From IMG/VR virus record IMGVR_UViG_3300048762_000252, positions 64,001-128,000 of that record: a DNA stretch of 64,000 nt. One strand, written 5' to 3'. The position numbers and the translations under genes were made by a program. Positions 38,066 through 39,750 of this stretch are shown in pieces. How positions within the stretch are numbered: the stretch's first letter is position 1; the number at the start of each line of letters is the position of its first letter. The notes beneath the pieces were generated by a model, which saw nothing but the letters and a program-made list of their open reading frames with translations, was not told the origin of the DNA and made no database searches. Source of the stretch: a virus (Duplodnaviria; Caudoviricetes).

Positions 38066-38602
38066 ATGGCAAAACTCCAACAACCATGGCCTGATGTGTC
38101 AGACAAAGTTTCCATCGAGCAAGTCTACGAAAAAGCTCAAGGCCGTGCTCATGAACTTCTACCACGCTTCAAAGCGCTTCTCGAACGATATACTCCTAGT
38201 GATAGCAAACTTCTAGTCAACATCAAAAGCCTTTCGTCATTCATCCGCAAATCAAATCGGAAGCCAGTGCAAAAAATTCATGATGTTCTCCGGGCGGCAA
38301 TTCTCACTCAGACAAAAAAAGAAGCTGCGAAGGTCGCCAACGAAATAAAGCGAAAACTCCCAATTGTAGAGTTCGATAAAAAAGACGATCCCGAAGAGAC
38401 AGAAACCGGATATCACGGGTCATATCATTTGAAGATGCGAATTGAAGATTTAATTACAGAAGTCCAGATAATGCCGGAAACTTTATGGGTTTACAAAGAG
38501 CAGAACCATCGAATATACACGGACACAGAACTCCAGCAAGACAAGACCGTGTTGACGTTCTCCAGGTGGCTCTATAAAACAGCGAATAAAGAGAGCGGCT
38601 AG
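38066..38602 (+). CDS. RelA/SpoT-type small alarmone synthetase domain protein
   Basis: IKSLSS..RK, IHDVLRAAI, GYHGSYH, EVQI; ATAAATA late promoter. Confidence 0.8.
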   Translation: MAKLQQPWPDVSDKVSIEQVYEKAQGRAHELLPRFKALLERYTPSDSKLLVNIKSLSSFIRKSNRKPVQKIHDVLRAAILTQTKKEAAKVANEIKRKLPIVEFDKKDDPEETETGYHGSYHLKMRIEDLITEVQIMPETLWVYKEQNHRIYTDTELQQDKTVLTFSRWLYKTANKESG

Positions 38603-38701: not shown

Positions 38702-38729
38702 TTGACAAATCCTAAAATCGTGAGATCAT
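38702..38729 (+). promoter_or_regulatory. sigma70-type promoter for the tRNA-like/mom unit
   Basis: TTGACA-16-GATCAT with extended TG; tRNA-like 5' end 6 nt downstream. Confidence 0.6.
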
Positions 38730-38735
38730 AAAAAA

Positions 38736-38809
38736 GCGTGGATAGCACAAAGGTAGTGTGTTCGATCCCAATCGAAAGGTGGCGGTTCGACTCCGACCTC
38801 CACGCTCCA
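38736..38809 (+). tRNA. non-canonical tRNA-Gly-like RNA (6-nt anticodon loop UCCCAA, bulged T-stem, encoded CCA)
   Basis: GCGTGGA/TCCACGC acceptor + T73 + CCA; GCAC/GTGT D-stem; TTCGA/TCGAA anticodon stem; GGCGG-TTCGACT-CCGACC T-arm. Confidence 0.85.
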
Positions 38810-38813
38810 AACA

Positions 38814-39608
38814 ATGGAAAAAGCACATCAACGAAAAATTAGAGAAGAGCAAGCACGCTACGATTCTCCGCTGGCAGAATGGCATGACATTGACACGTCT
38901 ATTCAAAACGGTATCGTTCATGAAATAGATTTCGATGTCGCAAAACCTATTATTCTCAAATACGAATGGCTTGGAAAATTGCGTGCCGGAATGCTACATG
39001 CTTTTGGCATATTTTTTGATGGTGTCATCGGCGGCGTTGTGATCTATGCCAATGACTACTCCGAAAATCTTGGTACCTGGGATGGCTACGGATACACGGG
39101 TAAGATTATTTGCTTGGCAAGAGGCACTTGTGTTCATTGGGCGCATGAACATACCGGCAGCAAGCTCATCAGACAGTCAATGAAGATGCTGCCCGACAAA
39201 TATAAAATAATTTCTTGCACCGTAGACGAAAATGCAGGAGAGATCGGTACGATTTATCAAGCATGTGGTTTCAACTACGTTGGAATCATGGGACCAGGAA
39301 AACGTGTCGTTTTTATAAAACCAAATGGTAACCAAATCTCTGAACGGACGGCTCGTGACCTATATGGCACAGGCAACATCAAACTGCTGGAAGAGAAGGG
39401 ACTGAAAGCAGAATATGTGAAACGCAAGGCTCGTTACTTCGCATTCCGTGGGTCCAAGAAAGAACAGAAGGAACTACGCAAAGCTATCGAGTCTCAAATA
39501 AAACCATATCCTAAACGGCAGCGGCATTCTGACGACGAGTTGCAGCAGCTTTGTGACCAGCCTGAACCATCGTCTCATGACGCTCCTGCTTCGCACGAAG
39601 ACGAGTAG
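38814..39608 (+). CDS. mom: Mom-family DNA adenine modification enzyme (GNAT fold)
   Basis: IILKYEWLG...FGIFF...GVVIY, LARG, SKLI..SMK, D..AGEIGTIYQACGFNYVG, K.RY, PYPK. Confidence 0.8.
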   Translation: MEKAHQRKIREEQARYDSPLAEWHDIDTSIQNGIVHEIDFDVAKPIILKYEWLGKLRAGMLHAFGIFFDGVIGGVVIYANDYSENLGTWDGYGYTGKIICLARGTCVHWAHEHTGSKLIRQSMKMLPDKYKIISCTVDENAGEIGTIYQACGFNYVGIMGPGKRVVFIKPNGNQISERTARDLYGTGNIKLLEEKGLKAEYVKRKARYFAFRGSKKEQKELRKAIESQIKPYPKRQRHSDDELQQLCDQPEPSSHDAPASHEDE

Positions 39609-39750
39609 CAGCGGCTTTGAAACCAGCACGGACCTGAGTGGTGTTTTTGCCTTCCGCAGCGGCGTGCGCTACGATGGCATTGATCTTCTTGGTGACAGCG
39701 GACTTGAGTCCCGGTGTCGTTGCGTTTATGAGTTGTTCTGCGATTGTCAT
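39511..39750 (-). CDS. small basic Ala-rich protein, paralog of the C-terminal domain of 39747-40697
   Basis: GKNTTQVRAGFKAAATR versus GKNPTMVIAGFKAAATR; AAGG RBS. Confidence 0.75.
   Translation of the reverse strand: MTIAEQLINATTPGLKSAVTKKINAIVAHAAAEGKNTTQVRAGFKAAATRLRAKQERHETMVQAGHKAAATRRQNAAAV

What the first reader, a model, noticed from the sequence alone, without database searches (positions are those of the whole stretch)
38702..39608. Dedicated non-translating tRNA-Gly-like RNA co-transcribed with a Mom-family DNA modifier: candidate self-supplied glycyl donor for DNA hypermodification
Seen: a 74-nt cloverleaf with encoded CCA ends 4 nt before the ATG of a Mom-like GNAT, behind one promoter. 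It keeps the bacterial tRNA-Gly identity set (G1-C72, C2-G71, G3-C70, U73, CC in the anticodon loop) but has a 6-nt anticodon loop and an extra bulged A in the 3' T-stem strand. Established: T-stem pairs 49-65, 50-64 and 51-63 set EF-Tu affinity, and staphylococcal non-proteinogenic tRNA-Gly species feeding FemXAB GNATs deviate there. From memory, recent biochemistry reports that Mu Mom uses glycyl-tRNA-Gly as donor; verify this in the literature. Inference: the RNA is charged with Gly, escapes EF-Tu and the ribosome, and is reserved for Mom. Alternatively it is a cis-regulatory leader coupling mom expression to tRNA processing. The T-arm/acceptor also reads in frame with mom as GGSTPTSTLQ, so gene callers could absorb it into the protein and hide it.
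Basis: partly seen in the sequence, partly recalled or inferred. Interest (0 to 1): 0.95.

Follow-up and report, generated by a model that had tools for sequence, protein, structure and literature searches.

The report
Private glycine tRNA beside phage Mom
Four bases ahead of its Mom DNA-modifying enzyme gene, a T4-like phage carries a glycine-tRNA look-alike that seems chargeable but unfit for the ribosome. The same odd RNA sits against Mom genes in well over a hundred other phage and bacterial sequences, so these enzymes probably travel with their own glycine carrier.

Summary
Window 38736-38809 (+) is a 74-nt cloverleaf: ARAGORN calls it tRNA-???, and Rfam tRNA scores 34.6 bits. It ends 4 nt before the ATG of a Pfam Mom gene (38814-39608).

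It belongs to a large, apparently undescribed RNA family. A search by its T arm alone returned 154 elements, and 146 have a gene within 150 nt. Of 134 distinct neighbouring proteins, 131 are Pfam Mom.

- **Conserved:** G1-C72, C2-G71, G3-C70 and two loop Cs. In a protein-first sample, where the search fixed nothing, the bulged-A T stem was kept in 7 of 9 and U73 in 8 of 9.
- **Variable:** the other stems covary strongly. The anticodon loop varies from 3 to 9 nt and has no conserved U33.
- **Position:** the element lies 5' of Mom, 3' of Mom, or on the opposite strand.

Together this favours a trans-acting glycyl carrier over a 5' leader. Mu Mom is published to use Gly-tRNA-Gly (PMC13219725).

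One feature is new and unexplained. In most 5' relatives the element is read in frame as Mom's N-terminus. The window and its closest kin are exceptions.

Charging, EF-Tu escape and use by Mom are inferred, not shown. This scan has noted the same pairing on other genomes (41 notes, at least 36 genomes). No paper in the library describes it.

The parts
38702..38729 (+). Candidate sigma-70-type promoter: TTGACA, 16 nt, GATCAT with an upstream TG. It would start transcription at or within about 2 nt of G1 of the RNA.
   Evidence: Consensus scan, (10 of 12 matches; site density is not above shuffles). The close relative L305 has a similar TTGACA...TGcGATGAT layout, there with a 13-nt leader. Not verified.
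38736..38809 (+). 74-nt tRNA-Gly-like RNA, a member of the Mom-associated family (model R1).
   Evidence: ARAGORN tRNA-???; Rfam tRNA 34.6 bits; R1 80.3 bits; cloverleaf as the minimum-free-energy fold.
38736..38742 (+). Acceptor stem 5' strand, pairing with 38799-38805. It gives G1-C72, C2-G71 and G3-C70.
   Evidence: Sequence. Family-wide, pairs 1-72 and 2-71 are invariant and 3-70 is G-C in 123 rows and G-U in 11. Pairs 4-7 covary.
38766..38771 (+). Anticodon-loop equivalent UCCCAA (6 nt, or a CCCA tetraloop). The two Cs at 38768-38769 are conserved in at least 90% of the family.
38781..38798 (+). T arm GGCGG-UUCGACU-CCGaCC. The bulged A is at 38796, between pairs 51-63 and 50-64.
   Evidence: The bulge was kept in 7 of the 9 elements found by a protein-first search, where it was not imposed by the pattern, and in L017 with a compensated stem change.
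38806..38809 (+). Discriminator U73 and encoded CCA.
38814..39608 (+). mom: a 264-aa Mom-family GNAT. Its ATG lies 4 nt after the CCA, with no Shine-Dalgarno-like purine run in between.
   Evidence: Pfam PF25680, 6.7e-19. A profile of this protein and relatives matches PDB 8bv8 'Methylcarbamoylase mom' at 3.5e-45. R103 and S116 are invariant in alignment A2 and sit 13 residues apart, like Mu R111 and S124.

Best explanation
The RNA is a dedicated, non-translating glycine carrier for the adjacent Mom enzyme.

**Proposed pathway in this phage.** The RNA is transcribed together with mom, because only 4 nt separate them. It is released as a CCA-ended tRNA-like molecule. The host GlyRS charges it with glycine, using G1-C72, C2-G71, G3-C70, U73 and the two loop Cs. 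The bulge in the EF-Tu-contacting part of the T stem, and an anticodon loop that cannot decode, keep it away from EF-Tu and the ribosome. Mom then uses it to put glycine on N6 of adenine in double-stranded phage DNA, which rearranges to N6-carbamoylmethyl-dA as in phage Mu.

**Shown here.** The RNA exists. It belongs to a large, structurally constrained family. That family is almost exclusively found against Mom genes.

**Inferred.** Processing, glycylation, EF-Tu exclusion, use by Mom, and DNA as the target.
For: 1. **Specific association.** A search with the T arm alone gave at least 120 IMG/VR hits and 35 genome hits. Of 154 elements, 146 have a Mom-like ORF within 150 nt. Of 134 distinct neighbouring proteins, 131 match Pfam Mom. 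In a protein-first sample of 80 Mom loci, all 9 R1 hits abut the Mom gene on its strand, and nothing else in 274 kb scored.
2. **Selection on RNA structure.** 96.3% of cells are paired, against 40-47% when partners are slid. There are 660 double-sided changes against 69-137.
3. **What is fixed is the published GlyRS identity set** (G1-C72, C2-G71, U73, C35, C36; PMC7826273). U73 is almost exclusive to bacterial tRNA-Gly (and tRNA-Cys) and shields Gly-tRNA-Gly from DTD (D-aminoacyl-tRNA deacylase; PMC6097841). The two loop Cs lie far from the end that Mom recognises, yet they are conserved. This argues for recognition by GlyRS.
4. **What decoding needs is not kept.** Loops run from 3 to 9 nt and position 33 is U in only 16 of 55 seven-nt cases.
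5. **Placement suggests action in trans.** The element lies 5', 3', or on the opposite strand (4 cases) relative to Mom.
6. **Mom's donor is known.** Mu Mom needs Gly-tRNA-Gly, accepts all three isoacceptors and rejects Gly-tRNA-Ala (PMC13219725).
7. **The bulge sits where EF-Tu binds.** EF-Tu affinity for tRNA bodies is set by the first three T-stem pairs, which is where the bulge lies. Low EF-Tu affinity is how staphylococcal non-proteogenic tRNA-Gly is reserved for FmhB (PMC7826273).
8. **It is an extra RNA species.** Host genomes that carry the element also have canonical tRNA-Gly without the bulge. The phage's own tRNA set lacks Gly.
9. **The enzyme looks active.** Mom's catalytic residues are conserved.
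Against:
- Mu Mom works with ordinary host tRNA-Gly, and about 89% of sampled Mom loci lack the element. A private carrier is therefore not required for the chemistry.
- In most 5' relatives the element lies inside the mom reading frame. Excision would then remove the start codon.
- In 47 of 67 distinct 3' members the ORF runs through the element, so excision would leave a non-stop mRNA.
- The effect of the bulge on EF-Tu is inferred from its position only.
- The T arm, U73 and CCA were fixed by the search pattern in the large sample. They could be judged only in the smaller protein-first sample.
- Eleven members have G3-U70, the AlaRS mark.
Confidence: 0.62

Rival explanations
1. It is a cis-acting tRNA mimic that controls mom expression. 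Mom (or GlyRS, or RNase P) binds or cuts the tRNA-shaped part of the mom mRNA. This would limit synthesis of a toxic enzyme or tie it to tRNA processing. The RNA would not serve as a glycine donor.
For: - In the 5' class the start codon lies 4-25 nt upstream of the element or inside it. The element then forms the first roughly 25 codons, so folding or cleavage and translation should exclude each other.
- In the window the ATG is 4 nt after the CCA with no Shine-Dalgarno sequence.
- Mu mom is known for elaborate transcriptional and translational control (Hattman review, cited in PMC13219725).
Against: - About half of the distinct elements lie 3' of Mom, and four lie on the opposite strand. A mimic there cannot gate initiation.
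- The two loop Cs, U73 and (where present) the CCA are kept, although Mom is reported to read the 3' end and the amino acid.
- Terriglobia copies stand alone without Mom.
Confidence: 0.15
2. It is a trans-acting inhibitor or decoy. One version is an uncharged or poorly charged tRNA-Gly mimic that holds Mom inactive, like an RNA antitoxin. Another is a decoy that soaks up a host factor aimed at tRNA-Gly, such as a GNAT toxin or an anticodon nuclease.
For: - It is tightly linked to Mom and has a tRNA-Gly-like acceptor end.
- GNAT toxins that act on Gly-tRNA-Gly are known (discussed in PMC13219725).
- A RelA/SpoT-like gene sits beside the pair in the window and in L017.
Against: - Conservation of the full GlyRS identity set, including the loop Cs, is what a chargeable substrate needs, not what a pure Mom-binding decoy needs.
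- No cognate toxin or defence gene is consistently linked. The only constant neighbour is Mom.
Confidence: 0.08
3. It is a decoding tRNA-Gly variant (for example a frameshift suppressor with an 8-nt loop), or a decaying tRNA gene or integration-site remnant with no role linked to Mom.
For: - ARAGORN assigns Gly(ccc), Gly(acc) and similar anticodons to some members.
- 8-nt loops occur in many 5' members.
- Some members lie in bacterial chromosomes.
Against: - Loop length ranges from 3 to 9 nt and U33 is not conserved.
- The bulged T stem is kept across distant lineages.
- Covariation excludes decay.
- 146 of 154 elements abut a Mom gene.
- The window is a lytic-type T4-like genome with a separate canonical tRNA cluster.
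Confidence: 0.03

Closest known systems
Phage Mu Mom with host Gly-tRNA-Gly (Silva et al. 2026, PMC13219725; PDB 8bv8)
   Same: - The enzyme family is the same: Pfam PF25680, and a profile match to 8bv8 at 3.5e-45.
- The R111 and S124 equivalents are conserved.
- The donor is expected to be a glycyl-tRNA-Gly-type molecule.
   Different: - Mu scavenges ordinary host isoacceptors and has no tRNA gene at mom. The paper mentions no tRNA-like partner (0 occurrences of 'tRNA-like').
- Here the enzyme gene carries a non-canonical tRNA-Gly-like gene against it or inside it.
Non-proteogenic tRNA-Gly isoacceptors of Staphylococcus feeding FmhB/FemAB (PMC7826273)
   Same: - Extra tRNA-Gly species that keep the GlyRS identity.
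- They bind EF-Tu weakly through T-stem changes.
- They are reserved for a GNAT-fold aminoacyl-transferase outside translation.
   Different: - Those are full, canonical-shaped host tRNAs with 7-nt loops, and they are not adjacent to the fem genes.
- Their acceptor is a peptidoglycan precursor, not DNA.
- Here there is a bulged T stem and degenerate loops, and some members lack the D arm.
- Here the RNA is carried on phages and physically fused to the enzyme gene.
tRNA-mRNA co-transcripts such as E. coli thrU-tyrU-glyT-thrT-tufB (from my own knowledge, not checked here)
   Same: tRNA(s) and a protein-coding message lie on one transcript and are separated by RNase P and 3' processing.
   Different: Those tRNAs are canonical and lie in the leader, never inside the reading frame. 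The protein does not consume that particular tRNA as a dedicated co-substrate.
Aminoacylatable 3' tRNA-like structures of plant RNA viruses, and the tRNA-mimic operator of thrS mRNA (from my own knowledge, not checked here)
   Same: tRNA-shaped elements that are part of a longer coding RNA and are recognised by aminoacyl-tRNA synthetases.
   Different: They serve replication and translation, or synthetase autoregulation. They are not linked to a tRNA-dependent transferase, and their sequence and architecture are different.

Membership tests
Mom-associated tRNA-Gly-like RNA family (defined here, model R1) | Cloverleaf with acceptor stem starting G1-C72, C2-G71, G3-C70(U70) | tested here: met
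   Window sequence. In the family, pairs 1-72 and 2-71 are invariant in 134 of 134 rows, and 3-70 is G-C in 123 and G-U in 11.
Mom-associated tRNA-Gly-like RNA family (defined here, model R1) | T stem GGCGG/CCGaCC with an A bulged between pairs 51-63 and 50-64 | tested here: met
   Window A38796. The feature was kept in 7 of 9 independently found elements.
Mom-associated tRNA-Gly-like RNA family (defined here, model R1) | CC kept in an anticodon loop of otherwise free length and sequence | tested here: met
   Window loop UCCCAA. The CC columns are at least 90% conserved, and loops run from 3 to 9 nt.
Mom-associated tRNA-Gly-like RNA family (defined here, model R1) | Lies within about 150 nt of a Mom-family gene | tested here: met
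   The window has 4 nt between the CCA and the mom ATG. In the family, 146 of 154 elements meet this, and 131 of 134 neighbouring proteins are Pfam Mom.
Canonical elongator tRNA-Gly (Rfam RF00005; decoding tRNA) | 7-nt anticodon loop with U33 and a purine at position 37 | tested here: not met
   The loop has 6 nt, or 4 if closed. ARAGORN cannot assign an anticodon.
Canonical elongator tRNA-Gly (Rfam RF00005; decoding tRNA) | Regular 5-bp T stem | tested here: not met
   There is a 1-nt insertion in the 3' strand. Canonical tRNA-Gly in five host genomes have no bulge.
Canonical elongator tRNA-Gly (Rfam RF00005; decoding tRNA) | GlyRS identity nucleotides G1-C72, C2-G71, U73, C35, C36 (PMC7826273) | tested here: met
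   All are present in the sequence (list). Numbering of the loop Cs as 35/36 is by analogy.
Canonical elongator tRNA-Gly (Rfam RF00005; decoding tRNA) | Aminoacylation with glycine and delivery by EF-Tu | not testable with these tools
   Needs biochemistry.
Mom protein family (Pfam PF25680) | Significant match to the family model over its full length | tested here: met
   68.8 bits (cut-off 27.1), model positions 3-202 of 202.
Mom protein family (Pfam PF25680) | Residues essential in Mu Mom (R111, S124) | tested here: met
   R103 and S116 are invariant in A2 and 13 residues apart. They sit in the ELNR and NSExR motifs aligned to 8bv8. That chain is numbered about 9 lower than the paper and carries A at the Ser position.
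Mom protein family (Pfam PF25680) | tRNA-dependent glycyl transfer to N6 of adenine in dsDNA | not testable with these tools
   Shown only for Mu Mom and two metagenomic homologs in PMC13219725.
Non-proteogenic tRNA-Gly (staphylococcal type) | Member of the staphylococcal NP lineage of canonical-shaped tRNA-Gly | tested here: not met
   The architecture differs (bulge, short loop) and the context is phage or metagenome. This is an analogy of role only.

The most novel reading that the evidence does not exclude
The element is a truly bifunctional sequence. In most 5' members the same roughly 75 nt are both the first codons of mom and the enzyme's own co-substrate RNA. Each transcript would then be partitioned between translation (enzyme) and excision (glycine carrier), giving a self-contained, self-limiting DNA-hypermodification module. 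In the 3' members, alternatively, the mom mRNA itself may end in a chargeable tRNA-like structure from which Mom draws glycine. Either way it would be a new class of phage-borne, non-ribosomal aminoacyl-carrier RNA, fused to the gene of the enzyme that consumes it.
Probability: 0.3. Interest if true: 0.92.

Novelty: new variant of a known kind. Interest (0 to 1): 0.85.

Why it matters
That Mom uses Gly-tRNA-Gly to modify DNA was established only in 2026. The authors read this as scavenging of host tRNA.

A widespread, dedicated tRNA-Gly-like RNA welded to Mom genes would have several consequences:
- Phages would be shown to solve the competition with EF-Tu and the ribosome for an aminoacyl-tRNA the way staphylococci do for cell-wall synthesis, but with a minimal, mobile RNA.
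- It would offer a natural, compact 'orthogonal' glycyl carrier.
- It would define which tRNA features GlyRS and Mom really need. Nature has here stripped away the D arm, loop geometry and T-stem regularity in different members.
- It would flag a systematic annotation error, because the RNA is swallowed into Mom ORFs or called as tRNA-Xxx.
- The in-frame embedding poses a new problem in RNA processing versus translation.

Tried and rejected
- **Close Mom relatives without the element.** ARAGORN and R1 found no element in the 15 IMG/VR loci holding Mom relatives of 29-49% identity (L001-L015). None turned up in the 28 closest loci of the protein-first sample either. The element is therefore not universal.
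- **Failed or unavailable searches.**
  - A single-sequence PDB search found nothing; only the profile reached 8bv8.
- **Chance hits.** L033 and L035 from the metagenome pattern are chance hits, with no CCA and no cloverleaf.
- **Check on my own model.** My iterated local Mom HMM could have drifted, so neighbours were re-scored with Pfam. 131 of 134 hold.
- **Promoter.** Promoter-like sites in the region are not enriched over shuffles, so 'one promoter' rests on geometry alone.
- **Integration-site remnant.** Considered and rejected: the cloverleaf is full, stems covary, and the context is a lytic T4-like genome.
- **The N-terminal peptide as the selected feature.** Considered and rejected:
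  - The peptide changes wherever stems covary.
  - It is not translated in the window, L305 or L306.
  - It is absent in 3' members.
- **Literature.** Searches for a described Mom-linked tRNA-like RNA found none.
Full report
**What is at the coordinates.**
- The window is part of a 166.6-kb T4-like virus record.
- ARAGORN finds a single tRNA-type gene in the 64 kb, at 38736-38809 (+). It cannot name it ('tRNA-???, anticodon (cc)').
- Rfam's tRNA model matches at 34.6 bits (E 2.5e-5).
- The sequence gives a perfect 7-bp acceptor stem beginning G-C, C-G, G-C. It also gives U73, an encoded CCA, the T arm GGCGG/CCGaCC and the loop UCCCAA.
- RNAfold returns the cloverleaf with the bulge. It can close the loop further to CCCA.
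- Four bases after the CCA, an ATG opens a 264-aa ORF that is a full-length Pfam Mom.
- A profile of this protein and relatives hits the crystal structure of Mu Mom (8bv8, 3.5e-45). R103 and S116 are invariant and spaced like the essential R111 and S124 of Mu Mom (PMC13219725).
- A TTGACA-16-GATCAT site ends 6 nt before G1. It is only a consensus match.
- With 4 nt between the RNA and the ATG there is no room for a terminator, so co-transcription follows from geometry.

**Literature basis.**
- Silva et al. 2026 (PMC13219725) show that Mu Mom transfers glycine from Gly-tRNA-Gly to N6 of adenine in dsDNA. It accepts all three E. coli isoacceptors and rejects Gly-tRNA-Ala and Ala-tRNA-Ala.
- The paper treats this as scavenging of host tRNA. 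It contains no mention of a tRNA-like partner.
- Searches for 'tRNA-like'+Mom, 'momylation', DUF4338+tRNA and related terms found no description of one.

**The element is conserved next to Mom.**
- Among the 120 best homologs of the window's Mom, eight have N-terminal extensions that read the tRNA in frame, ending ...GGS[INT]PTSTLQ.
- Their contigs hold the same cloverleaf. It has the identical acceptor stem and bulged T arm, covarying D and anticodon stems, and loops of 5 to 9 nt. ARAGORN calls these Gly, Trp, Leu or '???'.
- A two-anchor DNA pattern found more copies in IMG/VR and in metagenomes. In one pair, L025/L026, the element overlaps the 3' end of a Pfam Mom ORF.
It also found 35 contigs of GTDB genomes from Terriglobia, Chloroflexota, Clostridia, Ignavibacteria and others.
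- Of 171 elements in all, 166 have a perfect 7-bp acceptor stem, and 143 sequences are distinct.

**Strength of the association.**
- Of the 154 elements in loci chosen by the RNA pattern alone, 146 have a Mom-like ORF within 150 nt.
- Of the 8 without one, 4 lie at a contig edge and 4 are stand-alone chromosomal copies.
- The Mom calls came from my own iterated HMM, so I re-scored the neighbours with Pfam. Of 134 distinct proteins, 131 match PF25680 (also 26 of 26).
- I also sampled 80 IMG/VR Mom loci by protein alone and searched them with the covariance model R1. There were 9 hits, every one abutting the Mom gene on its strand (2 upstream, 7 downstream). Nothing else in 274 kb scored.
- About one Mom locus in nine therefore carries the element. 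The 28 loci closest to the window's Mom in that sample, and L001-L015, do not.

**What is conserved and what is free.**
- On the 135-row alignment, 96.3% of cells form pairs, against 40-47% with slid partners. There are 660 cells with changes on both sides against 69-137, and no shuffle reaches the observed values.
- Pairs 1-72 and 2-71 never vary. Pair 3-70 is G-C in 123 rows or G-U in 11. Pairs 4-7, the D stem and the anticodon stem vary freely with compensation.
- Two adjacent Cs in the loop are at least 90% conserved.
- The loop itself is 3-9 nt. When it is 7 nt, position 33 is U in only 16 of 55 cases, and positions 32 and 38 can usually pair.
- In the large sample the T arm, U73 and CCA were imposed by the pattern. 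In the protein-first sample the bulged GGCGG/CCGaCC stem recurs in 7 of 9, even where the T loop has changed. U73 occurs in 8 of 9, and an encoded CCA in 5.
- L017 shows a compensated change inside the bulged stem.
- Some members (69-70 nt) have no D arm.
- The fixed positions coincide with the published GlyRS identity set (G1-C72, C2-G71, U73, C35, C36; PMC7826273).
- U73 is nearly exclusive to bacterial tRNA-Gly (and tRNA-Cys) and protects Gly-tRNA-Gly from DTD (D-aminoacyl-tRNA deacylase). Those authors stress this for tRNAs that EF-Tu does not shelter (PMC6097841).
- EF-Tu's affinity for a tRNA body is set almost wholly by the first three T-stem pairs. Glycine contributes little, so tRNA-Gly bodies normally bind tightly (PMC7826273). 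The bulged A sits between the second and third of those pairs.

**The element is an extra species, not the host's or phage's tRNA-Gly.**
- Five bacterial genomes that carry the element score it at 71-79 bits with R1. Their canonical tRNA-Gly (UCC, GCC, CCC), with regular T stems and 7-nt loops, score 60 or less.
- The phage has seven canonical tRNAs 40 kb away, and none of them is Gly.

**Position relative to Mom.** Among distinct elements with a same-strand Mom there are two classes:
- 65 lie 5' of the Mom core.
- 67 lie 3' of it.

Four more face Mom on the opposite strand. A device that only gated initiation of mom translation could not work from the 3' side or the other strand. This is the main argument against the 'cis leader' rival. 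The conserved loop CC is the second argument, because Mom is reported to read the acceptor end and the amino acid.

**An unexpected twist: the element is usually inside the reading frame.**
- In 63 of 65 distinct 5' elements the Mom frame is open through the whole RNA.
- 61 have a length of 73, 76 or 79 nt (1 modulo 3), against 40 of 67 in the 3' class (Fisher p = 3e-6).
- 60 use the same frame.
- 50 have an in-frame start within 30 nt upstream of G1. Others have one inside the D or anticodon loop.
- 42 have no ATG, GTG or TTG in frame within 30 nt after the CCA.
- The Mom core begins one or two codons after the CCA.
- The exceptions are informative. In the window (74 nt), its 88%-identical relative L305 (75 nt) and L306 (74 nt), the frame is broken and mom has its own ATG 4-7 nt after the CCA.
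- So 'absorption by gene callers' is the real gene structure in most relatives. RNase P release of the RNA would cut off the start codon.
- In 47 of 67 distinct 3' members the ORF runs through the element, so excision would leave a message without a stop codon.
- I cannot explain this. The simplest reading is that transcripts are partitioned between translation and RNA release.

**Verdict.**
- The element is a member of a large family under strong structural selection, with a near-exclusive link to Mom genes.
- The rivals are a cis-regulatory mimic (about 0.15), an inhibitor or decoy RNA (about 0.08), and a decoding tRNA or decayed remnant (about 0.03).
- Every biochemical step remains inferred.
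- This scan has noted the same pairing before on other DNA: 41 notes in at least 36 genomes, several with follow-up reports that reached the same reading. I found no publication of it.

Noticed in passing
window 38066-38602 (+); L017 3794-4336 (-): A 178-aa RelA/SpoT-like ORF lies directly upstream of the RNA-mom unit (Pfam RelA_SpoT E 1.1e-4, below the cut-off). It has a 59%-identical homolog next to mom and the tRNA-like RNA in L017, in a different orientation. L016 has none. Some small alarmone-synthetase-type enzymes act on tRNA 3' ends (first-stage note e1-5753632), so a functional link is possible but untested.
   Followed up: partly
L043, L064, L070, L078, L092, L100, L106, L107 and others (alignment A1): Eleven of 135 family members have G3-U70, the alanyl-tRNA synthetase identity pair, instead of G3-C70, while keeping U73 and the loop CC. 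They might be charged with alanine, or with both amino acids.
   Followed up: no
L161 6925-7002, L168 3566-3643, L194 1464-1541 (Terriglobia MAGs): A 78-nt member has the bulged T stem, a 7-nt UUUCCAG loop and the host tRNA-Gly acceptor stem. It sits in a conserved chromosomal context (Kelch-repeat gene, small ORF, element, SpoIIE/HAMP gene) with no Mom nearby. The same genome has canonical tRNA-Gly UCC and GCC. This may be a host-borne stand-alone version with another partner.
   Followed up: partly
L068, L079, L104, L109, L135, L142: These family members of 69-70 nt lack a D arm altogether, and all lie right after a Mom ORF.
   Followed up: partly
L306 10-1525: One tRNA-like element is followed by two tandem Mom paralogs. 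The first is nearly identical to the window's Mom; the second (P0002) is 68% identical.
   Followed up: no
L025 3388-3474 (+): There is a second, weak R1 hit (25.7 bits) with a long insertion. It lies on the strand opposite the main element of that contig.
   Followed up: no
G000 contig 55.6-60.6 kb (outside the window): The phage's canonical tRNA cluster holds Arg x2, Lys x2, Val, Ile and a long-arm 'Ile(tat)'. All have an encoded CCA, and there is no tRNA-Gly.
   Followed up: partly
window 39511-39750 (-) versus mom 3' end: The mom ORF continues about 60 codons past the conserved PYPK(R) end of the family. It overlaps a convergent 79-aa ORF by 98 bp. The tail may be untranslated or non-functional sequence.
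   Followed up: no
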